IMG/VR virus record: IMGVR_UViG_2617271086_000002
Location: 1-34,445 of that record
Reading direction: 5' to 3' (one strand)
DNA from: a virus
Lineage: Duplodnaviria; Heunggongvirae; Uroviricota; Caudoviricetes
Length of the DNA stretch: 34,445 nt
The notes under the pieces are model-generated. The model was not told where the DNA came from and ran no database searches. It saw only the letters and a list, made by a program, of their open reading frames with translations. The position numbers were made by a program, and so were the translations under genes. Shown in pieces: positions 20,154 through 33,986 of the stretch; position 1 is the first letter of the stretch, and each line of letters opens with the position of its first letter.

Positions 20154-20759
20154 TTAGCCCATCATTTTTCTATACGCCTCTGCAGCCTGCTCCGGCGTTA
20201 AGTTGGTAATTTCTGTTCTGACTGGTCCTCCATCAGCGCCAGTCACTTCATTTTTGACGTTGTCTTTAAACGCCTGAACAGAAACATGACGCCCAAGCAA
20301 CTCAAGGTTTTTAACCTTATCAGGCCATTTGATTTTCTTCAGAAGTGCGGCGCTATCTGCGGATACCATCTCCACGACATCCATTCCTGATAGCGTTGTG
20401 CGCCATACCTTAGGCCAGTCTTTAATCGGCTTCAGTTCGCCATTGGCAAGCAGAATGTCAAGCACGTCCATCTGATCGATTTCAGTCAGCCGTCGCAATA
20501 CATAGGCAGCGTCTATACCTACCTCTTCATTGCGTTCAGCCTTTAGCTCAGCAATGCGATCTGCTATGTCAGGTTTTGACAGGTTCTCGCTACCAGTGGC
20601 GCGAGCAGTTTTCTCGCTGTAACCCGCCCTGATAGCTGCCTGAGTGGCGTTTAAATCTTTTAAATATTCCCTGCAGAACAGTTCCTGCTTAGGTGTGAGC
20701 TGTTTCAAATCACACCTCCGAAACATTGCTCCAATTTCTATGATTAACGATGTCAGCAA
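20154..20759 (-). CDS. Terminase small subunit (TerS). Likely start at an internal ATG near 20726.
   Basis: Roughly 190-201 aa ORF directly upstream of TerL, with an N-terminal HTH-like motif ([25 protein letters not shown]). Confidence 0.7.
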
Positions 20760-21207
20760 TCATGGTAGTGGATACGCCATATCTCTTTGCTAAAGACCTA
20801 AGCCCATTACCTACACTCCCGCGCACATACTCGCGGCGAATGCAGATGACATCGCACTCTTTTAATTTCGCCATTCCGTTCTTTTCACCTGAACGGTCAG
20901 GGTATGAGTTTCTGCCTCGCCTTGACCTGTCACGATTATTGTCAGCGACAGTACCTATAATCAGATGGTCAGGATTCACGCATGATGGATTATCGCATTT
21001 ATGCCTAACAACCAGGTCCTTGATGCTATCTAGCGAAATTCCGTTAGCTTCGCAGTATGCGATTCGATGTGCGTAGTGCGGCTTTCGTGAAATGTGCTTC
21101 TGCCCATACCCTCGCTTATTTATGTAGCCGGTATAAATCACACACTCTCCGACATACACATCATCCGGATGGGAAAACAGCTCTTGTTTGTCTGTGAGCT
21201 TTGCCAT
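20710..21207 (-). CDS. HNH endonuclease (packaging-associated)
   Basis: 165 aa ORF with an H-N-H / Cys-rich motif (HRIAYCEANG...RHKCDNPSCVNPDHLIIGTVADNNRDR), immediately upstream of TerS. Confidence 0.75.
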   Translation of the reverse strand: MAKLTDKQELFSHPDDVYVGECVIYTGYINKRGYGQKHISRKPHYAHRIAYCEANGISLDSIKDLVVRHKCDNPSCVNPDHLIIGTVADNNRDRSRRGRNSYPDRSGEKNGMAKLKECDVICIRREYVRGSVGNGLRSLAKRYGVSTTMIADIVNHRNWSNVSEV

Positions 21208-21228
21208 TGTTGGCTCCGTTTATCCGTT

Positions 21229-21254
21229 AAAAGGGATATCAGTTAAGTTATCCC
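21229..21254 (-). terminator. Terminator-like stem-loop between the Rha-family gene and the HNH gene
   Basis: Minus strand GGGATA-(10 nt loop)-TATCCC followed by TTTT. The stem and U-tract are modest. Confidence 0.35.
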
Positions 21255-21434
21255 GTGTAGGGTATAAGCCATTGTCGAGACCACTCATTGAATGGCCTCT
21301 GCAATAACCGATGTCTTTCCATCAGTCCGCCACCACAAAGAATCTTTTTTGCCATCAGGCAGGAGGTTCATCTTTCAGTGGCTGCCAGTGTTATTTCCCC
21401 ACTTACTGGCTTGGGTTGTTTCGTGGTACTGCTG

Positions 21435-21977
21435 TTAATTAGTGAGTCCGGGGATTACGGTTTGCCCGTGCTGTTCAAGGCGTTCAATTCTCGCCAGTAG
21501 CTGAGGCTTCTTAATTTTTCCCCAGCGATTTAGCAGGCGACCTGACATGCTGGCAACATCCTTCTCTTTCATGTACTCCAGCATTACGGCATTTCGCTCT
21601 TCTTCAAATTGACGATTACCAACCTGAAGCATGGCGTACATCCAGTTGAATGCGTTGATGTAAGCAATTTTGATACGCATTGCTTCTTTTTTGGTGTAGG
21701 ACATAACCAAAAGCATCAACCCATCCTTGCGGAGACGGTAGAATTTTTGCGGCTTACCATTCTGTAACTCATTGTTTTTATAGCAAAGCTCAAAGTTGAG
21801 CTTTGTATCAAACTCAGGAGGGCAAGCTTCTATGGTTCGTTCAATGTCACGAACCACGTTCTTCGGCAGCTTTCCAAATGCTTTTGCCACCATAAAAGAA
21901 TCTGTAACCGGATCGTTGTTTGCTACAAAAATTAGGTCTCTGAAATCTATATCGTTAACAACGGTTGGGTAGTTCAT
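21435..21977 (-). CDS. Rha-family phage regulatory protein. Start at the internal ATG 21975-21977; the longer track ORF is rejected.
   Basis: 180 aa from MNYPTVVNDIDFRDLIFVANNDPVTDSFMVAKAFGKLPKNVVRDIERTIE..., with an AAGG ribosome-binding site upstream of this ATG. Confidence 0.65.
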   Translation of the reverse strand: MNYPTVVNDIDFRDLIFVANNDPVTDSFMVAKAFGKLPKNVVRDIERTIEACPPEFDTKLNFELCYKNNELQNGKPQKFYRLRKDGLMLLVMSYTKKEAMRIKIAYINAFNWMYAMLQVGNRQFEEERNAVMLEYMKEKDVASMSGRLLNRWGKIKKPQLLARIERLEQHGQTVIPGLTN

Positions 21978-22124
21978 TGCGTCTTTACCTTTTAGAAAGA
22001 TGAGCCTGTTCGCACAGAAAAGCCGTCCCCGAGATGGTCGCCACCATATACGGCAATTCTCAGGCTCAGCTTTCTGAAAGACTCGGGGTTTATATGCGCT
22101 GCGATGCGCGTTTACTGAGGACAC

Positions 22125-22148
22125 AAAAAAGCCCCGCAAATGCGAGGC
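22125..22148 (-). terminator. Rho-independent terminator downstream of Rz
   Basis: Minus strand GCCUCGC-AUUU-GCGGGGC (7 bp stem with one G-U pair) followed by a U6-7 run (plus 22125-22130 aaaaaa). Confidence 0.6.
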
Positions 22149-22322
22149 TAAATCCTGGTGTTTGTGATGACTGTCTCTTATCTCAACGCAGCCCCTTACC
22201 GCGCGCCAGATGCTCAATATCAAGCATCAGCAATGAGATGTTTAATCTGGATTCACTCCAGAAGTGATCACCACCCTGTCTACAGAGCCAGATGTGAAGG
22301 ATGATGAGTAAAATTATCGCTA

Positions 22323-22790
22323 TCATCGAAGGCATTGCGTCCTAATGTATTCCTGAAGCGCTCTCAGTGCTGTTTGGTCGCGGATAATTCCGTCCCGGAT
22401 ACCGAGAACGTTTCGTCCAGCAACTGGAGAGAGTTCGACGGTGGCATCATTGCCCATGCCGGAGGCGCCGGAGGTTTCGGCCGAGGATGGCACAGGGGAT
22501 TTTCCTTTGACGAGCACCCTGCCACCATTATCAAGCTTGCGCCGAAGAGCATCATTTTCAGCTTTCGCATCAGCTAACTCCTTCGTGTATTTAGCATCGA
22601 GTGCATCAGCAGTACGCTGACGCTGCTGCATGTCAGTAATGGTGGCAGTCGCCTGCTTCAGCTCACTGACTTTTTTATCGCGCTGCTCTTTGTAGGCGAT
22701 GGCGTTATCACGGTAGTGATTAACAGCCCATGACAGGCAAACGATGATGCAGATAACCAGAGCGGAGATAATCGCGGTTACTCTTCTCAT
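22323..22790 (-). CDS. Rz: Rz i-spanin
   Basis: 155 aa ORF closely similar to lambda Rz ([31 protein letters not shown]...). ATGA overlap with the R stop. Confidence 0.9.
22364..22570 (-). CDS. Rz1: Rz1 o-spanin lipoprotein, embedded in the +1 frame of Rz
   Basis: [21 protein letters not shown]... has a lipobox and a Pro-rich segment, as in lambda Rz1. Confidence 0.8.
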
Positions 22791-23263
22791 ACCTCAATCT
22801 CTCTGACCGTTCCGCCTGCTTCTTTGAATTTTGCAATCAGGCTGTCAACCTTATGCTCGAACTGACCATAACCAGCGCCCGGCAGTGAAGCCCAGATATT
22901 GCTGCAACGGTCGATAGCCTGACGGATATCACCGCGATCAATCATCGACAAAGCGCCACGTTCCTTAATCTGCTGCAATGCCACAGCGTCCTGGCTTTTC
23001 GGAGAGAAATCTTTCAGGCCAAGCTGCTTACGGTAGGCATCCCACCAACGGGAAAGAAGCTGGTAACGTCCGGCTGCTGTTGATTTGAGTTTTGGGTTTA
23101 GCGTGACAAGTTTGCGAGGGTGATCGGAGTAATCAGTGAATAGCTCTCCGCCTACAATGACGTCATAACCATGATTTCTGGTTTTCTGACGTCCGTTATC
23201 TGTTCCCTCTGACCACGCCAGCATATCGAGGAACGCCTTACGTTGATTATTGATTTCCACCAT
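22787..23263 (-). CDS. R: Endolysin (lambda R-type lytic transglycosylase)
   Basis: 158 aa ORF that matches lambda R from memory, apart from a few substitutions ([35 protein letters not shown]...). Confidence 0.95.
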
Positions 23264-23570
23264 CTTCTACTCCGGCTTTTTTAGCAGCGAAGCGTTTGAT
23301 AAGCGAACCAATCGAGTCAGTACCGATGTAGCCGATAAACACGCTCGTTATATAAGCGAGATTGCTACTTAGTCCGGCGAGGTCGAGAAGATCACGAATG
23401 AACCAGGCGATAATGGCGCACATCGTTGCGTCGATTACTGTTTTTGTAAACGCACCGCCATTATATCTGCCGCGAAGGTACGCCATTGCAAACGCAAGGA
23501 TTGCCCCGATGCCTTGTTCCTTTGCCGCGAGAATGGCGGCTAACAGGTCATTTTTTTCTGGCATCTTCAT
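23247..23570 (-). CDS. S: Holin (lambda S-type, dual-start MKM motif)
   Basis: 107 aa ORF that matches lambda S107 from memory, apart from a few substitutions ([43 protein letters not shown]...). Confidence 0.95.
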
Positions 23571-23812
23571 GTCTTACCCCCAATAAGGGGATTTGCTCTA
23601 TTTAATTAGGAATATGGTCGGTTACTGATAGAACAAATCCAGGCTACTGTGTTTAGTAATCAGATTTGTTCGTGACCGATATGCACGGGCAAAACGGCAG
23701 GAGGTTGTTAGGGCAACCTCATGCCACCCGCTTTCACGAAGGTCATGCGTAGAATGCCGCAGCGTAACTATCACTGATGAATTCAGGATAGCCAGTGGCT
23801 ACGGCTCAGTTA

Positions 23813-23888
23813 TGGTGCTGGTTAACGGACTTGAACCGCTACCCATTCGCTTACAAGGCGACTGCTCTACCATTGGAGCTAAACCAGC
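23813..23888 (-). tRNA. tRNA with anticodon UGU (tRNA-Thr), 76 nt including encoded CCA
   Basis: Minus-strand sense sequence GCTGGTTTAGCTCCAATGGTAGAGCAGTCGCCTTGTAAGCGAATGGGTAGCGGTTCAAGTCCGTTAACCAGCACCA. It has a 7 bp acceptor stem, GG in the D-loop, anticodon loop CTTGTAA, T-loop TTCAAGT and a 3' CCA. Confidence 0.7.
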
Positions 23889-23893
23889 ATATT

Positions 23894-23968
23894 TGGCGGG
23901 ACAGCGTGGACTCGAACCACGATAAGAAGGTTAACAGCCTTCCGTAATGACCTTTATACGACTGACCC
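23894..23968 (-). tRNA. tRNA-like gene with anticodon GUU (tRNA-Asn), 75 nt. It has two U-U mismatches and could be a degenerate copy.
   Basis: Minus-strand sense sequence GGGTCAGTCGTATAAAGGTCATTACGGAAGGCTGTTAACCTTCTTATCGTGGTTCGAGTCCACGCTGTCCCGCCA. It has a perfect anticodon stem (GAAGG/CCTTC), loop CTGTTAA, T-arm CGTGG-TTCGAGT-CCACG and CCA; acceptor pair 4-68 and D-stem pair 13-22 are U-U. Confidence 0.5.
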
Positions 23969-24031
23969 AAATAAAAAAAGCCACCGTTGCAACTTAAGAG
24001 TCACTAACGGCAGCTTACCCTCTAATTATGG

Positions 24032-24550
24032 CTAAATGGCTAATTGCATGTCAAGGCTTTTAACGGCAACATGCTTAACTTTCTCAACACGTTTACGCAT
24101 TTTGAAAGCATTTTGCATTGGCTGGTATAAAACAAATAATGACGCTTTCAGGATGTCGTCAATTTCGTTTCTACAGGTTGCCAGTGAAGGTTTTCTCCAT
24201 CCCTCGCCACCACGTCCACACATCTTGCGTGGCTTTGCAGTCGCGTGATAGTAGGATGCAATTGCTCGCTTAGATGAACCATGAGCGTAGTAGCTGAGGA
24301 GGATGCCAAAGGCTTTCTTGTCAATGTACATGACGGAATCGACGACCTGAGAAATCAACATTCCATCATCATCATTGCACATTGGCCTTGTCATAACTCT
24401 TCCCGGCTCTACGCTCTCCATGAACTTCGCTATTACGCTGCTCATGCGCTTTTCCAGACGACCTGAATAAACCCATGCGCCCCACAGTTCAAGCCAGCCA
24501 TTCAGCCACTCGTGCTGCTCTTTGGTGAGGTTTAGTTCTCTTATGCCCAT
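24032..24550 (-). CDS. Q: Late-gene antiterminator Q (Phage_antitermQ-type family)
   Basis: 172 aa ORF in the canonical position between the nin region and the lysis cassette. It carries WGAW and C-N-DDDGMLI motifs recalled for this family. Confidence 0.65.
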   Translation of the reverse strand: MGIRELNLTKEQHEWLNGWLELWGAWVYSGRLEKRMSSVIAKFMESVEPGRVMTRPMCNDDDGMLISQVVDSVMYIDKKAFGILLSYYAHGSSKRAIASYYHATAKPRKMCGRGGEGWRKPSLATCRNEIDDILKASLFVLYQPMQNAFKMRKRVEKVKHVAVKSLDMQLAI

Positions 24551-24735
24551 CGTCTTCCCCTCTTGCCCTGTTTGACCATCAGGACGCCGTTAACTATTAC
24601 GTGACGCTCGCCTTTGCTGTCTCGGTTGTACTTGAGCACTGTTCCTCTTGCGCAGGAAAGCATCCTTGCCACTTCGGTCTGATTGCCTCGTGTCTGGATA
24701 AGAAGCTCTGGTATCGTTTGAATTGTGGCGTTCAT
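24541..24735 (-). CDS. ninH: NinH-like small DNA-binding protein
   Basis: 64 aa ORF similar to lambda NinH (..GNQTEVARMLSCARGTVLKY..). ATGA coupled to rusA. Confidence 0.7.
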   Translation of the reverse strand: MNATIQTIPELLIQTRGNQTEVARMLSCARGTVLKYNRDSKGERHVIVNGVLMVKQGKRGRRWA

Positions 24736-25094
24736 ACGTTCTCCAGTTCGGTGATTTTTATTCCAAGCCGTCCGCCTGGTACTTTCACGCCACGAATTAC
24801 GCGAATGTCATCGAATTGCTCGTCGTCTTCCGCAAATCCGGCGTGGATAAGGGAGTCGAGTAAACCTTTCAGGATGTTGTCGAGGTCGCGGCGGCGGGAG
24901 TCTGGAACGTCTGCGATGACTTTGATGCGGAGTCGTGATTTGGTGAAAATGTCTAACTTAAGTTGGCGGATGATTTGCTGAACGTCTTTTCGGTATTTCT
25001 GGCCTTTATCGCTGATGTAGTATTGGCTTCCCCGTCTTCGCCAGTAGGTATTCACCGACGGCGGGTATGGAAGCACAAACTGATATTCGTTCAT
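24732..25094 (-). CDS. rusA: RusA Holliday-junction resolvase
   Basis: 120 aa ORF with RusA motifs (..LPYPPSVNTYW...DVPDSRRRDLDNILKGLLDSL..). Confidence 0.85.
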   Translation of the reverse strand: MNEYQFVLPYPPSVNTYWRRRGSQYYISDKGQKYRKDVQQIIRQLKLDIFTKSRLRIKVIADVPDSRRRDLDNILKGLLDSLIHAGFAEDDEQFDDIRVIRGVKVPGGRLGIKITELENV

Positions 25095-25381
25095 GACTTA
25101 ATCTTCCCCTCCTTCAGCAGTATCGCCTGCGTCCTGATCACGCCTTCGAGGTGGTAAAGCCTGGCGTCTTTGTTGTCGAGATTATGGGTGCGTCGGTCGA
25201 TTTCATCGTGACACGCGCTACAAGCCCATGCGCCGATCAGGTCGTCAGGCTTCATTCCCGTTCCGCAAATTCCAGCCATCCGGTAATGTGCCAGAACTGT
25301 AGTTTCAGGGTTGCCATTGCATACGCCGTAAATACGTACCTGGCATTCTCTGCCGCGTGCTTCTTTGCGTAGGTTAGCCAT
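25091..25381 (-). CDS. YbcO-like (DUF1364) Cys-rich putative nuclease
   Basis: 96 aa ORF closely resembling the DLP12 YbcO pattern (MANLRKEARGRECQVRIYGVCNGNPETTVLAH...CSACHDEIDRR). Confidence 0.65.
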   Translation of the reverse strand: MANLRKEARGRECQVRIYGVCNGNPETTVLAHYRMAGICGTGMKPDDLIGAWACSACHDEIDRRTHNLDNKDARLYHLEGVIRTQAILLKEGKIKS

Positions 25382-26103
25382 TAAGCAGCCTCCCCGGTTA
25401 CTTTCAGCATTCCGTTATCGAGAAGCTTTCTGGTCAGCCACTGTTGACCACGCCCGGTGATTTTTGTGGTGAACGATATCTGTATCCCGTGATTTGTGTT
25501 GACCGCTGTTTCTTTCACTGTGAAATAGCCGCGATCCATATATTCCTGCATTGGCACATTGCGCCGGGAACCTGAAGCAATAAGGATTTTGTGATCGCGC
25601 ATCCACGCAAACAGTTTGTTTGGACCAATTCCAACAACCTTTGCAAAGTTTCCAATCAAAATTCCGCTGGCCTCGCCAACGCGATCGGCAAACTCAACTT
25701 TAGGTGCGGCAATTGCGAGCTGGTTTTCCAGTTGCATTTTCTGCTCAGCAAGATCAGCAGCAAGGCGCAACGCTTCCGGTAGCGTTTTGGGGATATTAAC
25801 CGCAGCTTCTTCAAGCTCTCGCCAGCGGTCAACAAGGCGGGCGGTGAACTCTGGCGACAACTGGGCAACAACAACAATACTGTCTCGCTTACCTTGTTCG
25901 CCTTCGAAGACGTAATGCTCGTACTGAACATTGAACCCTAAGTTATTGATTCTTCCGGAAACCTCAATTTGAGGAAGCCGGATAACACCATTTTTAGCCA
26001 GCGTTTCGATGGTACGTTTCACATTGTCATGACGCTTACCCACCAACTCAGCGATTTCAATGCTTGTCATTTTGATGGCATTGCCATTTATTAACTCATT
26101 CAT
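25381..26103 (-). CDS. Antirepressor-like protein (Rha-type N-terminal domain plus KilA-C / Ant C-terminal domain)
   Basis: 240 aa ORF. The N-terminus (MTSIEIAELVGKRHDNVKRTIETL) is Rha-like and the C-terminus (..LFAWMRDHKILIASGSRRNVPMQEYMDRGYFTVKE..) is KilAC-like. Its ATG overlaps the ninF stop. Confidence 0.65.
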   Translation of the reverse strand: MNELINGNAIKMTSIEIAELVGKRHDNVKRTIETLAKNGVIRLPQIEVSGRINNLGFNVQYEHYVFEGEQGKRDSIVVVAQLSPEFTARLVDRWRELEEAAVNIPKTLPEALRLAADLAEQKMQLENQLAIAAPKVEFADRVGEASGILIGNFAKVVGIGPNKLFAWMRDHKILIASGSRRNVPMQEYMDRGYFTVKETAVNTNHGIQISFTTKITGRGQQWLTRKLLDNGMLKVTGEAA

Positions 26104-26272
26104 CGTCTTCTTCCTCGTACATTGAGCTATTCGGATCGCTCATCAGTTCTGCGCAGCAATCGGAGCACACGTGAACTTCCAGCACATGCAGCTTCTGACC
26201 GCAGTTAGCGCACGTTAAAGCTCGCTCGACGCTTTCTTTCTGGTATTGAAGGGATTGGGATGGGCTAAGCAT
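26096..26272 (-). CDS. ninF: NinF (58 aa; below the ORF-track cutoff)
   Basis: Manual translation gives [58 protein letters not shown], which fits lambda NinF. It is coupled at both ends. Confidence 0.7.
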   Translation of the reverse strand: MLSPSQSLQYQKESVERALTCANCGQKLHVLEVHVCSDCCAELMSDPNSSMYEEEDDE

Positions 26273-26630
26273 TATTGGCGTCCTGCATCATGAGAAAGAC
26301 AATCATGGCGGCGCGGAGTGGGTTTTCATCTTGAGTCATATGATATGGGGTACTATCACTGCCAACTTTTCTATGCGCTGCCTTCCATAATCCATTTTCT
26401 GGCGCTGGAATAATGCCAATTCTGTTCTCTACGATAATCGGCTCTGCGTCTGATGGGCTTTTATAGTAATCAACCGTTTTTATTGCATAACCAGTTTCGT
26501 CATCCCACTCAACACCAACGATTGATGTTCCCAACTTTGCGATTTCGCAATCTTCGGGAGCAAATCCACAGCAAATTGCCACTCGCTTGTTAATTTCAAA
26601 ATCACTTAACTGTGAATAATCCATTGTCAT
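26265..26630 (-). CDS. Nin-region protein (NinX / DUF2591-like, putative). Start at the ATG overlapping the ninE stop.
   Basis: About 121 aa ([34 protein letters not shown]...). ATGA-type overlap at 26627-26630. Confidence 0.5.
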
Positions 26631-26803
26631 TTCCTCGCACGATGTCTTAGCCACCGGATATCCCACAGGTGAGCCGTGTAATTGAAGGTTTTTACGTCAG
26701 ATTCTTTTGGGATTGGCTTGCGTTTATTTCTGGAGCGTTTCGTTGGAAGGCATTTGCAGTTTTCGCAGATTATGTCGGTGAAACTTCGTCGCTGTCGTCT
26801 CAT
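26627..26803 (-). CDS. ninE: NinE
   Basis: [58 protein letters not shown] resembles lambda NinE. ATGA overlap with ninB. Confidence 0.7.
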
Positions 26804-27210
26804 TCGTACCTCCTGTCGGTAAATCTGACACCCTGACCAATAGCCCATGCTGTTGTGTACTCGATCAGACTTGCCATACGCTTCACGCTCATCTGCGCGC
26901 TGCTTTCGCGAATGTTGACGTATTCGCCTTCAAGGCCGGGTAAAACATCAGCTTCCTGTTTTGTTGCCACTGCATGACCGCTGATCAACAAAACCTTCCA
27001 TTGTTCTGGTTTTAGCCATTTATCGCACCATTGAACCTGACGAGCGATATCCGCCAGCATCGCGTGAAATTTTGCGTTCTGGTCAAGGTTGCGCTTGTAG
27101 TCAGTAATGCGGATGGTGACTGGCTTGTCTTTATCGAGTGGTGTTGCGAGGATGGCATTTATTGCGGCTTGCTGTTGTTGCTTAGTTCGGAGGAAGATTG
27201 TTTGCTTCAT
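26800..27210 (-). CDS. ninB: NinB (Orf-family recombination mediator)
   Basis: 136 aa ORF with a NinB-like pattern (..[22 protein letters not shown]..) at the start of the nin block. Confidence 0.7.
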
Positions 27211-27212
27211 CG

Positions 27213-27551
27213 TTACTCCTTCACTTTGACTCCAGCAGCGCGGATGTTTTCCTCATAAGCATCCATTGCATCACCGAAGCCATTGGAATAATCAACAGTA
27301 AACCCTTTGGCTAATGCTTCTCTGCTGTCGATAAACTTTGGCGCGGTTATTTCAATAGCTGCTCGCGATGCCTGCCATAAAGCCCACCACTCATTTAAGG
27401 AGTGACGAATATCCATGCTTGAAAATGCGAAGTACCTATCACCATTTCTTGCCTCGGTTATCATCTCGAATGGTAATCTCAATTTTTTGGCAACGTATTC
27501 CTCAAACTGCTTTCTTGATTCGCCCATATCAATCCCCGTTAGTCGTTTCAC
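27213..27551 (-). CDS. Hypothetical early protein
   Basis: 112 aa ORF co-oriented between the replication and nin genes. Confidence 0.4.
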   Translation of the reverse strand: MKRLTGIDMGESRKQFEEYVAKKLRLPFEMITEARNGDRYFAFSSMDIRHSLNEWWALWQASRAAIEITAPKFIDSREALAKGFTVDYSNGFGDAMDAYEENIRAAGVKVKE

Positions 27552-27744
27552 TCACGAATCTGACAAAACCAGCCATGTTAATTTGCATGAGTTTTTTCAA
27601 CACTTTGTCTCGCCGGCTACGTTTTGGTTTTGGCCTGTGGTTGAATCTTTCACAAACTGGAAGGCTTGATGATTTCCAGTACCTATTACGCCTTGCTCCA
27701 TCTTCCGCCATATCGGCATGAATAAGGTCTGCGAGTGTGCTCAT
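27529..27744 (-). CDS. Hypothetical small basic protein. Start at the ATG at 27742-27744, which has a GGAGAGG ribosome-binding site.
   Basis: 71 aa ORF with a Lys/Arg-rich centre. Confidence 0.35.
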   Translation of the reverse strand: MSTLADLIHADMAEDGARRNRYWKSSSLPVCERFNHRPKPKRSRRDKVLKKLMQINMAGFVRFVSETTNGD

Positions 27745-27758
27745 ATTCACCTCTCCAG

Positions 27759-27941
27759 TTACATTGGTTTTGTAATGTTGCTAGTCATCTTACGAATAAA
27801 AAAATGCGTACGTAGCTTTGCTTCCCACATGTAAATCTCCTCAAGGCGAGATAAATCTACGAATACCGGACCTTTGTAATCTGGTCTTGATGCCCTTATG
27901 TATGAGCTAATAGTTTGTGCATCTTGCTCGTCAAGATTCAT
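27759..27941 (-). CDS. Hypothetical small protein
   Basis: 60 aa ORF, co-oriented and tightly packed. Confidence 0.3.
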   Translation of the reverse strand: MNLDEQDAQTISSYIRASRPDYKGPVFVDLSRLEEIYMWEAKLRTHFFIRKMTSNITKPM

Positions 27942-28134
27942 GACTTCCCTCTCTAACAGATTTCAGGTTATTCCACTCCGTTACCGCACTGCGATAATTC
28001 GCGGCCGCCACAGCGGCGTGGTTAGCACAGTAGATTTGGCACACGTTCTCCATGTCGAATATTGTCGGTGATTTTCCGCATTTACATTTTTTGGCACGCG
28101 GTGCGTCTGAACACATTCCGTTAACGGTGTCCAT
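27931..28134 (-). CDS. Hypothetical small Cys-rich (zinc-ribbon-like) protein
   Basis: 67 aa ORF with C-x-C ... C-x3-C spacing. Confidence 0.35.
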   Translation of the reverse strand: MDTVNGMCSDAPRAKKCKCGKSPTIFDMENVCQIYCANHAAVAAANYRSAVTEWNNLKSVREGSHES

Positions 28135-28161
28135 CAGGATCCCCCTCGTTCTTAATCCAAT

Positions 28162-28188
28162 AAAAAAGGGCTACTGTGTAAATAGCCC
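28162..28188 (-). terminator. Rho-independent terminator after the helicase gene (position analogous to lambda tR2)
   Basis: Minus strand GGGCTA-(9 nt loop)-TAGCCC followed by a U6 run (plus 28162-28167 aaaaaa). Confidence 0.55.
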
Positions 28189-28215
28189 CTGTTATTAGCT
28201 CAGTGATGTAGATGG

Positions 28216-29592
28216 TCATACGTCAGCCCCTTGTGCATATCGTCTGCCACGCGCAGCAGGTGCATTTGATGCTGTGCAAATCTGTCTGGCTTCATCCTGG
28301 TCACATGCAACAAAGTGTCCGTTGCAGAACCGCTGGTAAACCGTACCAAGCGAGCCAAAACGGTTTTTCGTCACAATGATTTCAGCAAATGGCGCGGCGC
28401 TACTGTTCTCGTCATATACCGCTTCCCGATAGAGCATGATGATTGAGTCTGCGTCCTGTTCAATGCTTCCTGAATCACGCAAATCTGCGTTTGTCGGGCG
28501 TTTGTTTGGTCGCTTCTCAACATCGCGCGAAAGCTGACTCAGGGAGATAACGGGCGTTTTCAGGTCTTTCGCCATCGCCTTCAGGCTTCCGGAGATGTGA
28601 GCAATTGCGAGGTCGTTGCGATCTGCTTTCGGCTTCTCAATCAGGCCAAGATAATCCGCCATGATGAGTGACAGGTTTGGATTTTCCTGTTTGTGCCGTT
28701 CTGCGATTGAGCGAATTTCTTCGACCGATAACCGCGAGGCATCGACTACCCATACATCCAAATCTGCAAGCTGACTCATGCCTTTAGCAACACGTGCCCA
28801 GCCCTCGTCATCCATCGATGCAGGATTTCGCAGTACGCTAACCGACATCCTCCCGGCGTTGGCAATGCTTCGCTCTGCGATCTGCAATGCGCTCATTTCC
28901 ATCGAGAAAATCAACACTCCGCGCCGGACGTCAGAACCAGGAATAACGCGGCTTGCAACGCCTTCGGCAATCTTCAGCGCCAGCTCGGTTTTCCCCATAC
29001 CCGGACGAGCAGCGATAATCACCAAGTCTTCCGAGTTCATCCCTCCGGTGATGACATCAAGTTCTTCGATTCCGGTCTTCAGGGTATCTGACTCTTCTCC
29101 GTTCCTCAGACGCCTGTCAAGCGTGTCAGTGTAGTCAGTGATGATTTCCCCTAACCGTACAGGTTTAACCTCGTCACGGGGCTTTCTGATGGCTGAAAGA
29201 CGCTTTACAAGCTCATCCATCGCCTGACTCGATGCGTCGATGGTTCCGCTCTGAATTGGTTCACGCATTTCATCCATGATTTCCAGCACCAGACGGCGGT
29301 GATAGTTATCCGCGACCATTCCGGCATATCCCTTCAGGTTTGCGGCACTCGGGCAGTTTTTGCTGGTCATCAGGATTGACGTGAAATGCTCCTCTCCGCA
29401 CGCCTCGGCAACCATCAGCGCGTCGATTAGGTTTCTGTTTCTCGCCTGCTTGCGGATAACTTCGAAGGCTTTCCGGTAGAGCGGAATTGAAAACGCTTCC
29501 GGCTCCAGCGTTGCCAGAACGTCGCTGGCGGTTGGTGTTAATCCACCAATCAGCAAGCCACCGATAACGCTCGCTTCGATATCCTGTCTCAT
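28216..29592 (-). CDS. Replicative DNA helicase (DnaB family; P22 gene 12-like)
   Basis: 458 aa ORF with Walker A (ARPGMGKTE) and other DnaB-like motifs. ATGA coupled to the O-like gene. Confidence 0.85.
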
Positions 29593-30410
29593 GCAATCCC
29601 CCTGTCTGCAAACTTCCCTTCCCGTACTCCCGTTAACGAATCTTCCCTCAGCAGGTAATCAAAATCTGCCGTCCAGCCAGTGTCGTTGTCTCCGAAGTAA
29701 AACGGCTTGGCCTGATGCACAAACGCCCTGACATACGCTCTGAAACCGTCCACGTTTGGCGTTTTCAGTTGCGGGATGATTTTCTTCAGGCGGCGTTTTC
29801 GTTTCTCGTTGACCGCAACAGCGTGTGGAAGTCTGTCACCGACTTCGGTGTTGTAGGCGTTCAGGAAGGATTCGTAGTCGATTCGTTCTGCCTTGCGACG
29901 TTCAGGTTTAACCTGCCCATCGCCGCCCCCGTTAGGGGGTAAGGGGGTATTTGTATTTATTGTCTTTTGTATATTGTCTTTTGTGTTTAGCCGACTTGGC
30001 TTATACCCATTAGCCGACTTGGCTAATGTTTTATTAGCTGTTTTAGCTAATGTTAAGCTGTCCTGGCTAATCCACTGCGAAACCACCTTGTTCACTCCGA
30101 TTTTCACGCCATCAGCAATGAGGAATTTACGCTCAATAAGCTGGCGCTTGGCAGCGCAAACATGAGTGTGATGAATACCTGTCATGGCTGCTATCTGCGT
30201 GTTTGTGAGTCGATCCATCGGCTTATTGAATCCGTATGTCTTGCGCATGATAGCGAGCATCACCTTCAACTGCCGGACGGTTAAATCAGCCATCAGCAGA
30301 CTGTCGGTAATCTCGTTAGCAACGCGCATGAAACCATCTTCGGTATCTGCCACGCGATGCTCCACGACCTCCAGTTGAGGCCTGTAATCAGCTAACTTAA
30401 CGACGCCCAT
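29589..30410 (-). CDS. Replication initiator (lambda O / P22 gene 18-like) with internal origin iterons
   Basis: 273 aa ORF with an N-terminal HTH-like region and a low-complexity central linker encoded by the iteron repeats. Confidence 0.75.
29935..30090. repeat. Candidate replication origin: direct repeats (iterons) and an AT-rich stretch inside the O-like gene
   Basis: TAGCCGACTTGGCT occurs twice (29988-30001 and 30011-30024), followed by TTAGCT-type degenerate repeats, and preceded by ttgtcttttgt twice. Confidence 0.6.
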
Positions 30411-30558
30411 GTTTCACTCCTGCTTTGGCTAGTCTGTAAACACCAACAAGGCGCTCTGCGAACGCCCTGTTATTTGCTGCGGCTACCACTAATCCCTCAG
30501 GTGAATCAGGGTGTCGAATCTCTTCTTTTTCCTGGTATTTCTTACGACGTTTTGTCAT
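30397..30558 (-). CDS. Small hypothetical protein between cII-like and O-like genes (53 aa; below the ORF-track cutoff)
   Basis: [53 protein letters not shown], with a strong AGGAG ribosome-binding site 5 nt upstream of the ATG at 30556-30558. Its 3' end overlaps the O start. Confidence 0.4.
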   Translation of the reverse strand: MTKRRKKYQEKEEIRHPDSPEGLVVAAANNRAFAERLVGVYRLAKAGVKHGRR

Positions 30559-30590
30559 AATTACTCCTGTGGATTGATCCAGGAATTCCC

Positions 30591-30887
30591 TCAGAATTGC
30601 ATATCAATTTGCTTAAAATCCTCGGTGGCGGCCGGGGATTTTTTCTTTGTGATTTCATCAAGCGCATACTTAAAAGCCCTGCTAATCGGACTGATGTCTG
30701 ATGCCATTCCGAAAGCACACAAGACCGAAGCAATAAATCTCCAGTCCGTTCTGCTTATCTTCGATTCATGACAGCCAATCATCTTTGCCAGACCGCGCTG
30801 GGTAAGCGTTGACAGGTTGATGAGTAAATCAGTTTCAGCGCGATCAATTTCTCGCTGTGTTGGCTTGCTGTAGCTTGCTTGTGCCAT
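30591..30887 (-). CDS. cII-like transcriptional activator (P22 c1 / lambda cII family)
   Basis: 98 aa ORF downstream of cro. Its C-terminus (..ATEDFKQIDMQF) parallels lambda cII (..ATERSEQIQMEF). Confidence 0.7.
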   Translation of the reverse strand: MAQASYSKPTQREIDRAETDLLINLSTLTQRGLAKMIGCHESKISRTDWRFIASVLCAFGMASDISPISRAFKYALDEITKKKSPAATEDFKQIDMQF

Positions 30888-30954
30888 TTGTTAATTTTCC
30901 TATATTGATATTGAGTTATAGCGGCACACCCAATGGATTTGCCGCTGATGTTTG

Positions 30955-30995
30955 CTCACCCGGTTAGAGGTGAAAGGCCAGAACTGTTAAAGAGC
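30955..30995 (-). promoter_or_regulatory. Candidate nutR (boxA plus boxB-like hairpin) between cro and cII
   Basis: Minus strand GCTCTTTAACAG (boxA-like) followed by a hairpin TTCACC-UCUAACCG-GGUGAG. Confidence 0.45.
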
Positions 30996-31002
30996 AATTT
31001 GC

Positions 31003-31188
31003 TTATGCCGCTTGGCGGTAAGCACTTTCTTGATACTTCAGGGCGCCAGCTGTAACGATTTCCAATCGATAGGCGTCTTTCTCTGGGATAACTTCTTTCC
31101 ACTGAGAGACTGCTGCATCGCTAATGCCTAGTGCTTTAGCAACAGCACGCTGGGTTCCGAAGTGGTCAATAACATCTTTTTTGTACAT
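31003..31188 (-). CDS. cro: Cro repressor (P22-type)
   Basis: 61 aa ORF (MYKKDVIDHFGTQRAVAKALGISDAAVSQWKEVIPEKDAYRLEIVTAGALKYQESAYRQAA) matching P22 Cro from memory. GGAG ribosome-binding site upstream. Confidence 0.85.
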   Translation of the reverse strand: MYKKDVIDHFGTQRAVAKALGISDAAVSQWKEVIPEKDAYRLEIVTAGALKYQESAYRQAA

Positions 31189-31199
31189 AGACTCGCTCC

Positions 31200-31268
31200 G
31201 AAATTAAAGAACACTTAAATTATCCACCAAAGGAATCTTAAGTCAAGTTTATTTAAGATGTCTTAACT
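31200..31268. promoter_or_regulatory. OR operator region with divergent PR/PRM (P22-type 18 bp operators)
   Basis: Near-palindromic 18-mers ATTAAAGAACACTTAAAT (31203-31220) and ATTTAAGATGTCTTAACT (31251-31268), plus a CTTAAG-centred site between them. The second operator abuts the c2 ATG. Confidence 0.65.
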
Positions 31269-31919
31269 ATGAATACACAACTGATGGGTGAGCGTATTCG
31301 CGCTCGCAGAAAAGAACTCAAGATTAGGCAGGCTGCCCTTGGCAAGATGGTTGGCGTGTCTAATGTTGCTATTTCCCAATGGGAGCGATCTGAAACTGAG
31401 CCCAATGGCGAAAACCTATTGGCCTTAGCCAAGGCTTTGCAGTGCTCCCCTGATTACCTGTTGAAAGGAGAGGATAGTCTTTCAAACATTGCCTATCACA
31501 GCAGGCATGATCCAAGAGGTTCGTATCCTCTAATTAGTTGGGTAAGCGCAGGATGTTGGATGGAAGCTGTAGAGCCATATCATAGGCGTGCAATAGATAA
31601 CTGGTACGACACAACGGTAGATTGTTCTGAAGACTCTTTTTGGCTCGACGTTAAAGGCGATTCAATGACTGCCCCGGCAGGACTGAGTATTCCTGAGGGG
31701 ATGATTATTCTCGTCGACCCAGAAGTCGAGCCACGTAATGGAAAGTTGGTAGTCGCCAAACTTGAAGGAGAAAACGAGGCGACATTCAAAAAGTTAGTTA
31801 TTGATGCCGGTAGAAAATTCCTGAAACCACTCAATCCACAATACCCAATGATTGAAATCAATGGGAACTGTAAAATCATTGGCGTTGTCGTTGATGCCAA
31901 GCTAGCAAACCTTCCTTAA
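31269..31919 (+). CDS. c2: C2 repressor (P22 c2 / lambda cI family, LexA-like autocleaving repressor)
   Basis: 216 aa ORF matching P22 C2 from memory, with an N-terminal HTH (QAALGKMVGVSNVAISQWERS) and a C-terminal S24 peptidase-like domain (..GDSM..). Confidence 0.9.
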   Translation: MNTQLMGERIRARRKELKIRQAALGKMVGVSNVAISQWERSETEPNGENLLALAKALQCSPDYLLKGEDSLSNIAYHSRHDPRGSYPLISWVSAGCWMEAVEPYHRRAIDNWYDTTVDCSEDSFWLDVKGDSMTAPAGLSIPEGMIILVDPEVEPRNGKLVVAKLEGENEATFKKLVIDAGRKFLKPLNPQYPMIEINGNCKIIGVVVDAKLANLP

Positions 31920-31940
31920 GGGGCTTTCGCCCCTTTTTTA
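31920..31940 (+). terminator. Rho-independent terminator of the repressor transcript
   Basis: GGGGC-TTTC-GCCCC followed by TTTTTTATTT, immediately after the c2 stop. Confidence 0.7.
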
Positions 31941-31945
31941 TTTCC

Positions 31946-32060
31946 CGTTAAAAATCAAAGACAAACTAAATTCACGCCCATAAAATTAAGTTTTCTTCAA
32001 AAATGAACTTGACCAATAAATTAAGAAGTCTTAAATTTAAGCCATCAGCAGGACGCTGGA
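31946..32060 (+). promoter_or_regulatory. OL/PL region (operator-like sites upstream of the N-like gene)
   Basis: AT-rich region containing the operator-like sequence ATTAAGAAGTCTTAAATT and related half-sites, between the c2 terminator and nutL. Confidence 0.45.
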
Positions 32061-32083
32061 AGCCAAACGGAACAGATTGGCAG

Positions 32084-32123
32084 GCTCTTTAACATCGACG
32101 GACTCTCAACCTAACCGTTGAGA
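32084..32123 (+). promoter_or_regulatory. Candidate nutL (boxA plus boxB-like hairpin)
   Basis: GCTCTTTAACA (boxA-like, 32084-32094) followed by a hairpin TCTCAAC-CTAACC-GTTGAGA (32104-32123). The loop motif CTAACC is shared with the nutR candidate. Confidence 0.5.
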
Positions 32124-32233
32124 CCAGAACTTGAGTGGTTTTGGGGATGGCGCGAATTGCAGCTGCAAGACAGCGATCGAGAAGATAAGCACCTCGACGC
32201 GTCATGCGCCAAAGCCACTTAAAGGAGACCATC

Positions 32234-32506
32234 ATGGTAACCATTGTCTGGAAAGAATCCAAAGGTACGGCAAAAAGCCGCTACAAAGCTCGCAGAGCAG
32301 AACTTATTGCCGAGCGACGCAGTAATGAAGCACTGGCGCGAAAAATTGCGCTAAAGCTCTCTGGTTGCGTCAGGGCAGATAAAGCAGCATCACTCGGAAG
32401 CCTTCGCTGCAAGAAGGTAGATGAATGCAGTGGAAGTATTTGCCTGCCAAACGTAGCCATTTACGCGGCAGGCTACCGGAAATCAAAACAACTGACAGCG
32501 AGGTAA
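32234..32506 (+). CDS. N-like early antiterminator (P22 gp24 family). Start at the ATG at 32234, which has an AAAGGAG ribosome-binding site.
   Basis: 90 aa ORF with an N-terminal Arg-rich motif (GTAKSRYKARRAELIAERR) and a C-terminus LPNVAIYAAGYRKSKQLTAR resembling P22 gp24. Confidence 0.7.
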   Translation: MVTIVWKESKGTAKSRYKARRAELIAERRSNEALARKIALKLSGCVRADKAASLGSLRCKKVDECSGSICLPNVAIYAAGYRKSKQLTAR

Positions 32507-32509
32507 GTG

Positions 32510-32734
32510 ATGAATCAGACATACATTCCATCATGCTTGAGAAATCTGCCAAAGCAGAAAGCAAAGCCCCGCAAGCAAGCCATAAAGGACGCTAAGGCAG
32601 AAGTTATCGATAAGGCCATTAACCTGCTTAGAGAGGAGTTAAGGAGTGAAAAGCTCAACGGAATGCTGATGCCTTATCAGCGCGGATATCTTTCGGCGAT
32701 TAGTAAGCTGGAAGTATTGAAGAGTGAATTATGA
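32510..32734 (+). CDS. Hypothetical Lys-rich small protein (first gene of the accessory cassette)
   Basis: 74 aa ORF with a GAGG ribosome-binding site, starting 4 nt after the N stop. Confidence 0.45.
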   Translation: MNQTYIPSCLRNLPKQKAKPRKQAIKDAKAEVIDKAINLLREELRSEKLNGMLMPYQRGYLSAISKLEVLKSEL

Positions 32735-33423: not shown

Positions 33424-33438
33424 TCGGCCTTTATTTTT
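33413..33438 (+). terminator. Rho-independent terminator overlapping the stop codon of the 230 aa gene
   Basis: AGGCCG-CATAGT-CGGCCT followed by TTATTTTT. Confidence 0.6.
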
Positions 33439-33462
33439 GGCATAAATACACAGAGGTGAATA

Positions 33463-33714
33463 ATGACAGTAGGAAGAATGAAAAGGCCATGGAATGTTGT
33501 TGGCGCTGGATTTAACGATGATGGGGTTTATTTCACGTTTGACGATACAACCATCCATCGAGGTGATGTGAGATTGATGGAGGCAGCTCCTGATTTGCTC
33601 GAAGCTCTGCAAGCGATGCTAAACAAGGCATACAAGCAAAACTGGAATGACCATTATCCTGATGAAGTATCGAAAGCACAGTCAGCGATCAGCAAAGCTC
33701 TTGGAGGTGAGTGA
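33463..33714 (+). CDS. Hypothetical protein (83 aa)
   Basis: ORF in the early-left operon between the 230 aa gene and the cIII-like gene. Confidence 0.4.
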   Translation: MTVGRMKRPWNVVGAGFNDDGVYFTFDDTTIHRGDVRLMEAAPDLLEALQAMLNKAYKQNWNDHYPDEVSKAQSAISKALGGE

Positions 33715-33960: not shown

Positions 33961-33986
33961 GCCCTCCAATGTGAGGGCCTTTTTAT
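33961..33986 (+). terminator. Rho-independent terminator upstream of the cIII-like gene
   Basis: GCCCTC-CAATGT-GAGGGC followed by CTTTTTAT. Confidence 0.6.

What the first reader, a model, noticed from the sequence alone, without database searches (positions are those of the whole stretch)
23813..23968. Two tandem tRNA genes (Thr-UGU and Asn-GUU-like) in the late leader between Q and the S-R-Rz lysis cassette
The minus strand encodes two cloverleaf-compatible tRNAs with encoded CCA ends, 5 nt apart, directly downstream of Q and upstream of S. They would therefore be transcribed from the Q-dependent late promoter. This is where some lambdoid phages carry tRNA genes together with toxin cargo, but no toxin ORF is present here. 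The upstream copy has U-U mismatches in the acceptor and D stems and may be decaying or unusual.
Basis: seen in the sequence. Interest (0 to 1): 0.6.

Follow-up and report, generated by a model that had tools for sequence, protein, structure and literature searches.

The report
Known phage tRNA-Asn/tRNA-Thr late-leader cassette
The two predicted tRNA genes are real, but they are the long-annotated tRNA-Asn/tRNA-Thr pair of phage 21, Sf6 and many other lambdoid prophages, and the identical phage 21 tRNA-Thr was reported in 2025 to replace a host tRNA destroyed by the P2 Old anti-phage nuclease.

Summary
Observation confirmed. ARAGORN and Rfam both call tRNA-Asn(GUU) at 23894-23968 and tRNA-Thr(UGU) at 23813-23888 on the minus strand (55 and 61 bits; threshold 29). 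They are 5 nt apart and both encode CCA. They lie directly after the late terminator tR' downstream of Q, and upstream of S-R-Rz/Rz1.

It is not new. Both mature sequences are identical to those of phage 21, and the pair is 99-100% identical to Sf6, BTP1, Kapi1, HK446 and Bas106. It is annotated in those records and in 369 of 5,426 complete E. coli genomes.

They are conserved while neighbouring pairs covary, so they are not decay.

Most likely mechanism: Q-dependent read-through of tR' produces the tRNAs late in infection. The tRNA-Thr is a nuclease-resistant substitute for host tRNA-ThrU. Published work shows the phage 21 tRNA protects cells against P2 Old, and the window copy has the same features (unpaired G27·A43, U28-A42).

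The Asn tRNA lacks the P2 Old and PARIS AriB recognition motifs, but nobody has tested it. Codon supplementation (ACA and AAU about 2-fold enriched in late genes) remains a weaker, compatible rival.

Interest is low.

The parts
24032..24550 (-). Q late-gene antiterminator (phage 21 / Sf6 gp59 type)
   Evidence: 172-aa ORF; phrog_943 'anti-termination protein Q-like', E 2.6e-93; homologous gene annotated in Sf6 and phage 21.
24025..24054 (-). Late promoter PR' (TTGACA, 18 nt, CATAAT), overlapping the 3' end of Q
   Evidence: Promoter scan, 11 of 12 matches. The same sequence is annotated as PR' in Sf6. Activity is inferred, not measured.
24029..24044 (-). Putative Q-binding element: direct repeat ATTAGCCA / TTTAGCCA between -35 and -10
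   Evidence: Read from the sequence. It occupies the same position as the annotated phage 21 QBE (ATTGAGCA / AATGAGCA). The assignment is by analogy only.
23969..24016 (-). tR' intrinsic terminator: 39-nt hairpin and T-run, ending one base before tRNA-Asn
   Evidence: RNA fold -20.2 kcal/mol, z -5.42, 0 of 200 shuffles as stable. Identical to the terminator annotated in phage 21 (PMID 1704887 in the record) and in Sf6.
23894..23968 (-). tRNA-Asn(GUU), CCA encoded, discriminator G73; conserved U4·U69 and U13·U22 mismatches
   Evidence: ARAGORN; Rfam 55.3 bits; identical to phage 21 and Sf6; compensatory changes at 6-67, 7-66 and 28-42 in relatives.
23889..23893 (-). 5-nt spacer AATAT between the two tRNAs
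   Evidence: Sequence. Among relatives AATAT occurs 52 times and AACAT 50 times. It is the most variable stretch of the cassette (pi 0.11).
23813..23888 (-). tRNA-Thr(UGU), CCA encoded, discriminator A73; unpaired G27·A43, U28-A42, G39
   Evidence: ARAGORN; Rfam 61.5 bits; identical to the phage 21 tRNA-Thr; four pairs with compensatory changes and G27·A43 unpaired in 17 of 17 variants.
23756..23805 (-). Conserved 50-nt hairpin in the late leader just downstream of tRNA-Thr. It belongs to the lambda-type leader, not to the tRNA cassette
   Evidence: Fold -28.2 kcal/mol, z -4.67. Conserved in phage 21, Sf6 and lambda. Role unknown.
23247..23570 (-). Holin/antiholin S (dual start MKM), first translated gene of the late operon
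   Evidence: ORF; phrog_126, E 5.3e-40.
22323..23263 (-). Endolysin R (22787-23263), Rz spanin (22323-22790) and embedded Rz1 (22364-22570)
   Evidence: ORFs; phrog_90 and phrog_13.

Best explanation
These are two functional phage tRNA genes: the phage 21 / Sf6-type cassette tRNA-Asn(GUU), 5 nt, tRNA-Thr(UGU). The cassette sits as a cleanly bounded unit between the T-run of the late terminator tR' and the lambda-type late leader. Proposed mechanism, step by step. (1) Inferred from anatomy and the annotated homologues: PR' fires, and without Q the transcript stops at tR', one base before tRNA-Asn. With Q, RNA polymerase reads through, so the tRNAs are the first products of the late transcript, ahead of S-R-Rz and the virion genes. 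(2) Inferred: RNase P and 3' trimming release mature tRNAs; no CCA addition is needed. (3) Reported for the identical phage 21 sequence, not tested here: the tRNA-Thr decodes ACA and resists the P2 Old Toprim nuclease, which kills by cutting the anticodon stem of host tRNA-ThrU, the only ACA reader. It therefore replaces the destroyed host tRNA. (4) Inferred: because 29 of 31 late genes contain ACA, this keeps late translation going in cells that carry P2-like prophages. (5) Hypothesis: the tRNA-Asn does the same for a secondary target of Toprim tRNA nucleases (PARIS AriB, P2 Old). A general boost of ACA and AAU decoding is a compatible side benefit.
For: Real tRNAs: with structure-preserving covariation. 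Purifying selection: pi is 0.006 (Asn) and 0.011 (Thr) against 0.029-0.037 in the adjacent leader, across 56 distinct loci with homologous flanks. Identity: both mature sequences are identical to phage 21 OL657228, with only one spacer base differing. Expression logic: PR', the tR' hairpin abutting tRNA-Asn, and PR', QBE, start site and terminator annotated in phage 21 and Sf6. Function of Thr: PMC12445682 reports that the phage 21 tRNA-Thr(UGU) protects cells from P2-OLD, resists cleavage in vitro, and has a shorter anticodon stem plus C28U/G42A. The window gene shows exactly G27·A43 unpaired and U28-A42, against A27-U43 and C28-G42 in E. coli thrU. PARIS: AriB cleaves Lys(UUU), Thr(UGU) and Asn(GUU) at U36AAUC|A41, and U39A abolishes cleavage (PMC12409363). 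The window Thr reads UAAGC|G and the Asn reads UAACC|U, and T5's Thr likewise has G39. The window Asn also lacks the paired CNG motif (AAG/CUU against CGG/CCG in asnT). Independence from any one virion module: the cassette occurs with P22-like podoviruses, with phage 21 and with this contractile-tail module. It follows both 21-type and lambda-type tR' and precedes at least three lysis modules.
Against: No expression, processing or charging data exist for this locus. No one has shown that phage 21 or any cassette-bearing phage escapes P2 interference or PARIS during infection; the published rescue used plasmid-expressed tRNA and left small colonies. The tRNAs are made late, whereas Old is triggered early by RecBCD inhibition. 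The early genes here are ACA-rich (35% of Thr codons) and would not be rescued. There is no tRNA-Lys(UUU), which is required to bypass PARIS. The Klebsiella relative of the Asn gene has C28-G42, which restores a CNG-like pair. A non-U at position 39 is not rare among tRNAs, so motif absence alone is weak evidence. ACA and AAU really are about 2-fold enriched in the late genes, so plain codon supplementation is not excluded.
Confidence: 0.6

Rival explanations
1. Pure codon supplementation. The tRNAs only raise the supply of ACA and AAU/AAC decoders during massive late protein synthesis, and have nothing to do with host nucleases.
For: In the late genes ACA is 11.0 per 1000 codons against 4.5 in 37 E. 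coli K-12 CDS (OR 2.45, p 1e-7), and AAU is 26.9 against 13.5 (OR 2.0). thrU is the only ACA-reading tRNA in E. coli (PMC12445682). The phage L authors suggest this role for the Asn tRNA (PMC8022706). Alternative partners at this site (Gly-UCC, Arg-UCU) also read A-ending rare codons.
Against: The major capsid gene uses ACA once in 21 Thr codons. AAC is not enriched, and E. coli has several tRNA-Asn genes (own knowledge). The same cassette is attached to unrelated virion modules, so it is not co-adapted to one gene set. This view does not explain the conserved G27·A43 and U28-A42 features, which are the ones reported to confer nuclease resistance.
Confidence: 0.25
2. RNA-processing punctuation. 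The tRNAs mainly serve as RNase P/RNase E entry sites that cut the terminator-containing 5' leader off the late mRNA and set its stability.
For: tRNA-Asn starts one base after the tR' T-run, and a stable conserved hairpin follows tRNA-Thr, so processing would give a defined 5' end to the lysis mRNA.
Against: Lambda has an unrelated segment of about 167 nt at the same place and needs no tRNAs. Anticodons, discriminator bases and identity-type positions are conserved, which processing alone would not require. The identical Thr needs its UGU anticodon class to rescue cells (PMC12445682).
Confidence: 0.05
3. Neutral passenger or decaying relic. The genes hitch-hike with the Q/tR' module, and at least the Asn copy is losing function.
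For: There are two non-canonical pairs in Asn. In the phage L/ST64T lineage the second gene has diverged so far that ARAGORN no longer calls it. Six of 120 loci show Asn alone, though these may be cut by contig ends.
Against: Diversity is 3-5 times lower than in the adjacent non-coding leader. Compensatory changes occur in both genes while the mismatches stay fixed, even in the Klebsiella relative. The cassette has moved between lambda-type and 21-type leaders as an intact unit. Rfam scores are well above threshold.
Confidence: 0.05

Closest known systems
[quoted passage not shown]
   Same: Both mature sequences are identical to phage 21, and the pair is 99.4-100% identical to the others. Order, 5-nt spacing and position between tR' and the holin gene are the same.
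   Different: One spacer base differs (AATAT against AACAT). The Q-binding repeat is the Sf6 type, not the phage 21 type. The lysis genes are lambda S/R-like rather than the S21 pinholin and SAR endolysin. The virion module here is a SEN34-like contractile tail.
Nuclease-resistant 'rescue' tRNA-Thr(UGU) against P2 Old (tRNA-Thr21 and tRNA-Thr6; Govande et al., NAR 2025, PMC12445682)
   Same: The sequence is the same as tRNA-Thr21, with a UGU anticodon, a shortened anticodon stem and C28U/G42A.
   Different: Nothing differs at the sequence level. Here the gene is seen in its native late-operon context, which that paper did not examine.
T5 tRNA-Lys/Thr/Asn variants that neutralise PARIS AriB (PMC11464382, PMC12409363)
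   Same: The Thr(UGU) and Asn(GUU) species match. Both lack U39 of the UAAUC|A site, and the Thr anticodon arm 5' half and G39 match T5 Thr.
   Different: Overall identity to the T5 tRNAs is only 61-64%. There is no tRNA-Lys(UUU). The host phage is temperate and expression is late and Q-dependent. AriB resistance is untested.
Stx-phage late-leader tRNA cluster (ileZ-argN-argO upstream of stxAB; own knowledge)
   Same: tRNA genes lie between Q/PR' and the lysis genes of a lambdoid phage.
   Different: The tRNA species differ and no toxin or other cargo ORF follows.
Host E. coli thrU and asnT
   Same: Same anticodons, discriminator bases, G1-C72/C2-G71 in Thr and T-loop.
   Different: Only 70% (Thr) and 62% (Asn) identical. 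The anticodon stems are rewritten at positions 27-31 and 39-43.

Membership tests
tRNA (Rfam RF00005) | Covariance-model score above the curated gathering threshold, full length | tested here: met
   61.5 and 55.3 bits against 29, model positions 1-71 of 71.
tRNA (Rfam RF00005) | Cloverleaf with a 7-nt anticodon loop, U33, purine 37, and conserved U8, G18, G53-T54-T55-C56 and A58 | tested here: met
   ARAGORN structures; invariant columns shared with the host tRNAs; the minimum-free-energy fold is a cloverleaf.
tRNA (Rfam RF00005) | Base pairs maintained by compensatory change among relatives | tested here: met
   Thr: pairs 3-70, 5-68, 6-67 and 49-65, with 0 of 500 shuffles reaching the observed value. 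Asn: pairs 6-67, 7-66 and 28-42. Few independent events; all three Asn changes come from one Klebsiella sequence.
tRNA (Rfam RF00005) | Mature, aminoacylated transcript | not testable with these tools
   The literature reports that the identical phage 21 tRNA-Thr is active in cells when plasmid-expressed (PMC12445682). There are no data for the Asn gene.
Phage 21 / Sf6-type late-leader tRNA cassette | Sequence identity of both genes to the phage 21 and Sf6 genes | tested here: met
   Mature sequences identical, and 155-156 of 156 nt over the pair.
Phage 21 / Sf6-type late-leader tRNA cassette | Position directly after tR' downstream of Q and upstream of the holin gene; order Asn, 5 nt, Thr | tested here: met
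   104 of 120 IMG/VR loci have the same order, with 5-nt spacers in all but one.
P2 Old-resistant rescue tRNA-Thr | UGU anticodon | tested here: met
P2 Old-resistant rescue tRNA-Thr | Shortened anticodon stem together with an altered paired CNG motif (C28U/G42A) | tested here: met
   G27·A43 is unpaired, and U28-A42 replaces C28-G42 of thrU. This holds in 17 of 17 variants. The criteria come from PMC12445682.
P2 Old-resistant rescue tRNA-Thr | Resists Old cleavage and restores viability or phage growth | not testable with these tools
   Reported for the identical phage 21 sequence. Never tested during infection by a cassette-bearing phage.
PARIS (AriB)-neutralising tRNA set (T5 type) | Thr(UGU) and Asn(GUU) variants changed at or around the U36AAUC|A41 site | tested here: met
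   Thr reads UAAGC|G and Asn reads UAACC|U, judged against the determinants.
PARIS (AriB)-neutralising tRNA set (T5 type) | Resistant tRNA-Lys(UUU), required for bypass | tested here: not met
   Only two tRNAs are present in the window. The requirement comes from PMC12409363. The pair is therefore not filed as a member of this set.
Stx-phage-type tRNA-plus-toxin late-leader cargo | Cargo (toxin) ORF between the tRNAs and the lysis genes | tested here: not met
   The only ORF there is a 50-aa GTG ORF at 23622-23774, and it lies in sequence about 95% identical to lambda's non-coding leader.

The most novel reading that the evidence does not exclude
The pair may be a two-component, late-timed cassette against Toprim tRNA nucleases. 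Under this reading the untested tRNA-Asn(GUU), as well as the tRNA-Thr, is a nuclease-resistant replacement aimed at the Thr(UGU)/Asn(GUU) targets shared by PARIS AriB and P2 Old. Both systems are carried by P2/P4 elements that compete with lambdoid phages in the same hosts. The strictly conserved odd pairs (U4·U69 and U13·U22 in Asn, G27·A43 in Thr) would then be escape features. The cassette would be a mobile unit that hops between lambda-type and 21-type late leaders and can be extended with Phe, Arg or Gly tRNAs as defences change.
Probability: 0.35. Interest if true: 0.45.

Novelty: already known. Interest (0 to 1): 0.15.

Why it matters
For annotation, this is a routine feature that standard pipelines already call, and no new biology is needed to explain it. 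Its wider relevance is modest but real. The same 161-nt cassette sits in about 7% of complete E. coli genomes and in many Salmonella, Shigella and Klebsiella prophages. It links a classic phage conflict (P2 exclusion of lambdoid phages) to a simple countermeasure. If the Asn member also proves nuclease-resistant, the cassette would be a compact natural example of a temperate phage timing replacement tRNAs to its late operon. Its presence could then help predict which prophages escape Old or PARIS defences.

Tried and rejected
(1) Other structured RNAs in the leader. A permissive Rfam search (E up to 1) of 23400-24200 returned only the two tRNAs.

(2) Toxin or other cargo. No credible ORF lies between tRNA-Thr and S.

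(3) Integration-site mimic or attP remnant. Rejected: these are full-length genes only 62-70% identical to host asnT and thrU, and they sit in the late leader rather than next to int.

(4) An independent promoter for the tRNAs. None was found between PR' and the genes, and tRNA-Asn abuts the terminator.

(5) Supplementary tables of PMC12445682, to check the tRNA-Thr21 sequence directly. They are not held. Identity was established against the phage 21 genome record instead.

(6) Literature searches for native expression of the BTP1 tRNAs, and for any paper linking lambdoid late-leader tRNAs to PARIS. Nothing relevant was found.

(7) The BASEL paper on Bas106, which carries an identical pair. 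Its text gives no statement on Old sensitivity for that phage.

(8) Diversity comparison on all loci. It was inflated by mosaic, non-homologous flanks, so it was redone on loci with homologous flanks.

Not attempted: co-occurrence of the cassette with old or PARIS across genomes, because the search tool returns counts but not full genome lists.

Full report
OBSERVATION. ARAGORN finds exactly two tRNA genes in the window. tRNA-Thr(tgt) is at 23813-23888 and tRNA-Asn(gtt) at 23894-23968, both on the minus strand. Rfam's tRNA model matches both full-length at 61.5 and 55.3 bits against a threshold of 29, with E about 1e-11 and 1e-9. Each folds on its own into a cloverleaf. The sequence shows a 5-nt spacer (AATAT) and encoded CCA ends after discriminators G73 (Asn) and A73 (Thr). 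Thr has an unpaired G27·A43.

ANATOMY. Reading the minus strand, the order is as follows.
- Q at 24550-24032 (phrog_943, E 2.6e-93).
- PR' (TTGACA, 18 nt, CATAAT) at 24054-24025, overlapping the end of Q.
- A direct repeat ATTAGCCA/TTTAGCCA within the PR' spacer and running 2 nt into the -10 (24044-24029), where phage 21 has its Q-binding element.
- A 39-nt hairpin plus T-run at 24016-23969 (-20.2 kcal/mol, z -5.4), identical to the annotated tR' of phage 21 and Sf6.
- tRNA-Asn, starting at the very next base, then the spacer and tRNA-Thr.
- A conserved 50-nt hairpin at 23805-23756 (-28.2 kcal/mol, z -4.7).
- About 185 nt of leader, then S (23570), R, Rz and Rz1.

Aligned with lambda, everything from two bases after the CCA of tRNA-Thr to the S start codon is about 95% identical to lambda's late leader. 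The 156-nt pair (161 nt counting the five bases on to the homology breakpoint) replaces about 167 nt of unrelated lambda sequence lying between the tR' T-run and AACTGAGCC. The pair is thus a cleanly bounded cassette. A permissive Rfam search finds no other known RNA in the leader, and there is no cargo ORF.

WHAT IT IS. The 156-nt pair is 100% identical to phages Bas106, HK446, HF4s, Kapi1 and mEp506. It is 99.4% identical to phage 21, Sf6, SfI and BTP1. Against phage 21 the only difference is one spacer base, so both mature tRNAs are identical. The Sf6 record annotates 'tRNA-Thr ... similar to phage 21' and 'tRNA-Asn', together with PR', qut and tR'. The phage 21 record does the same. The genome papers on phage L and epsilon34 mention the Sf6 Asn/Thr pair at this position. 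In RefSeq, 369 of 5,426 complete E. coli genomes carry the pair, and it is annotated as tRNA-Thr | tRNA-Asn in the listed records. Of these, 104 have Asn+Thr, 7 were called Asn+Gly(UCC), 6 have Asn alone, 1 has Asn+Thr+Gly, and 2 gave no tRNA call. The window's alleles are the commonest ones: 89 of 118 for Asn and 68 of 105 for Thr.

ARE THEY FUNCTIONAL OR DECAYING? Among 56 distinct loci whose flanks are homologous to the window, nucleotide diversity is 0.006 (Asn) and 0.011 (Thr). The adjacent non-coding leader shows 0.029-0.037, and the spacer 0.11. Adding the Klebsiella and Flyfo phage relatives gives the following.
- Thr shows compensatory double changes at four pairs (3-70, 5-68, 6-67, 49-65), and 0 of 500 shuffles reach this value. 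G27·A43 stays unpaired in all 17 variants.
- Asn shows compensatory changes at 6-67, 7-66 and 28-42. U4·U69 is kept in 14 of 16 variants and U13·U22 in 16 of 16.
The odd pairs are therefore conserved features, not erosion. One caveat applies: the independent events are few, and all three Asn changes come from a single Klebsiella sequence. Known identity elements are present: anticodon GUU plus G73 for AsnRS, and G1-C72, C2-G71, G35 and U36 for ThrRS. Those element lists come from my own knowledge; the bases themselves are seen.

HOW IT MOST LIKELY WORKS. Expression is inferred. The only strong promoter upstream is PR', and the terminator abuts tRNA-Asn, so the tRNAs should be made when Q allows read-through. 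They would be the first products of the late transcript.

Function of the Thr member comes from the literature. Govande et al. [quoted passage not shown] They also report that phage tRNA-Thr(UGU) genes rescue cells by resisting cleavage and replacing it. This explicitly includes the phage 21 tRNA ('tRNA-Thr21'). Resistance needs both a shortened anticodon stem and an altered CNG, and tRNA-Thr21 has C28U/G42A and a shorter stem. The window gene is that sequence. It has G27·A43 unpaired and U28-A42, where thrU has A27-U43 and C28-G42.

A second system points the same way. [quoted passage not shown] U39A abolishes cleavage, and T5's Lys, Thr and Asn variants together neutralise PARIS (PMC12409363). 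The window tRNAs read UAAGC|G (Thr) and UAACC|U (Asn). T5's Thr shares the G39 and the 5' half of the arm. The window Asn also lacks the CNG pair (AAG/CUU against CGG/CCG in asnT).

Because 29 of 31 late genes contain at least one ACA, loss of tRNA-ThrU would block virion production. The anti-nuclease role is thus experimentally supported for the Thr sequence. It is only a motif-based hypothesis for the Asn.

RIVAL: CODON SUPPLEMENTATION. Compared with 37 E. coli K-12 CDS, the late genes over-use ACA (11.0 against 4.5 per 1000 codons; OR 2.45) and AAU (26.9 against 13.5; OR 2.0). AAC is not enriched. The major capsid gene has one ACA among 21 Thr codons. The cassette also travels independently of virion modules:
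- It is found in P22-like podoviruses, in phage 21 and in this phage, whose early and lysis region is HK97/CUS-3/Kapi1-like and whose virion genes are SEN34-like with a tail sheath.
- It follows 21-type tR' in 95 loci and lambda-type tR' in about 18.
- It occurs with at least three Q 3' ends and at least three downstream lysis modules.
Supplementation is compatible with the data but explains less. I give it 0.25.

WEAK POINTS OF THE PREFERRED MODEL. There are no expression data for this locus. No infection experiment shows that a cassette-bearing phage escapes Old or PARIS. The tRNAs are made late, while Old is triggered early, and the early genes are ACA-rich (35% of Thr codons). No tRNA-Lys is present, which PARIS bypass requires. 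The Klebsiella Asn relative carries C28-G42, which restores a CNG-like pair.

COMPARISON AND NOVELTY. The locus is a member of the phage 21/Sf6 late-leader tRNA cassette; every defining feature tested was met. It works like the T5 anti-PARIS tRNA set but is not a member of it, because it lacks Lys and shares only 61-64% identity. It resembles the Stx-phage tRNA cluster only in position, having different tRNAs and no toxin. Literature searches found no paper connecting lambdoid late-leader tRNA-Asn/Thr with PARIS, so that link and the role of the Asn gene remain open. The feature itself is already known.

VERDICT. The finding is already known. Interest is 0.15. The most novel reading not excluded is a two-component, late-timed, mobile cassette against Toprim tRNA nucleases (probability about 0.35; interest 0.45 if true).

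Noticed in passing
L106 (IMGVR_UViG contig) 676-909; L032 and L011, same layout: A three-gene variant of the cassette: Asn, then a chimeric Thr, then Gly(UCC). The first 25 nt of the Thr are phage-type. In L106 the rest is identical to E. coli thrU; in L032 and L011 it is thrU-like with C28·U42 and A27·C43 mismatches. The Gly is nearly identical to host glyT. This suggests recombination between the phage Thr gene and a thrU...glyT-like tRNA operon. ARAGORN misses the middle gene in 7 loci, so they were first counted as 'Asn+Gly'.
   Followed up: partly
L126 (Salmonella phage L, MW013502) 401-472: The 'tRNA-Leu(TAA)' annotated in phage L/ST64T is a diverged derivative of the Thr gene. It has the same acceptor and T arms, a rewritten D and anticodon region, and is 72 nt long. 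ARAGORN does not call it. The Asn gene beside it is 100% identical to the window's.
   Followed up: partly
L129 (Klebsiella phage ST16-OXA48phi5.2) 619-938; L130 (Flyfo siphovirus Tbat2_3) 701-938: Expanded versions of the same cassette downstream of Q: Asn(GUU)-Phe(GAA)-Thr(UGU)-Arg(UCU) in the Klebsiella phage, and Asn-Phe-Thr in the bat-faeces phage. The Thr anticodon arm, including G27·A43, is unchanged.
   Followed up: partly
about 18 of 118 IMG/VR loci: The same tRNA pair also sits directly after a lambda-type tR' (the 6S RNA terminator) with a lambda-type Q and PR'. The cassette is therefore exchanged between leaders of different Q specificity, always at the terminator T-run.
   Followed up: partly
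window 23756-23805 (-): A very stable 50-nt hairpin (-28.2 kcal/mol, z -4.7) in the late leader, conserved in lambda, phage 21 and Sf6. In phage 21 it is followed by a T-run. Its function is unknown.
   Followed up: partly
window 1-20726 versus 21000-34445: The genome is mosaic. The immunity, replication, nin, Q and lysis regions are HK97/CUS-3/Kapi1-like at 95-98%. They are joined to a SEN34 / vB_EcoM-611R5-like virion module with a tail sheath (10491-11636), a baseplate and tail fibres. This is a lambdoid regulatory chassis on a contractile-tail phage.
   Followed up: partly
window 20710-21207 (-) and 21435-22223 (-): [quoted passage not shown] A Rha-like regulator (Phage_pRha plus ORF11CD3 domains) lies between the lysis cassette and the packaging genes.
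   Followed up: partly
window 32731-33423 (+): In the pL operon, two genes downstream of N, a 230-aa protein matches Pfam Nmad5 ('nucleotide modification associated domain 5', E 8e-71). Its function in this phage is unknown.
   Followed up: no
window 24032-33714 (early genes): The early genes are much richer than the late genes in host-rare codons. AGA is 14.6 per 1000 codons, AGG is 9.5 per 1000, and ACA makes up 35% of Thr codons. No phage tRNA serves AGA or AGG, and the Thr tRNA is made only late.
   Followed up: partly
E. coli RefSeq complete genomes: Six of 393 copies of the tRNA pair lie on plasmid records, possibly phage-plasmids or misassigned prophages. Some genomes carry up to three copies.
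   Followed up: no
window 27368-27721 (+): A 117-aa ORF on the opposite strand inside the nin region has no PHROG or Pfam match. It could be a moron or could be spurious.
   Followed up: partly
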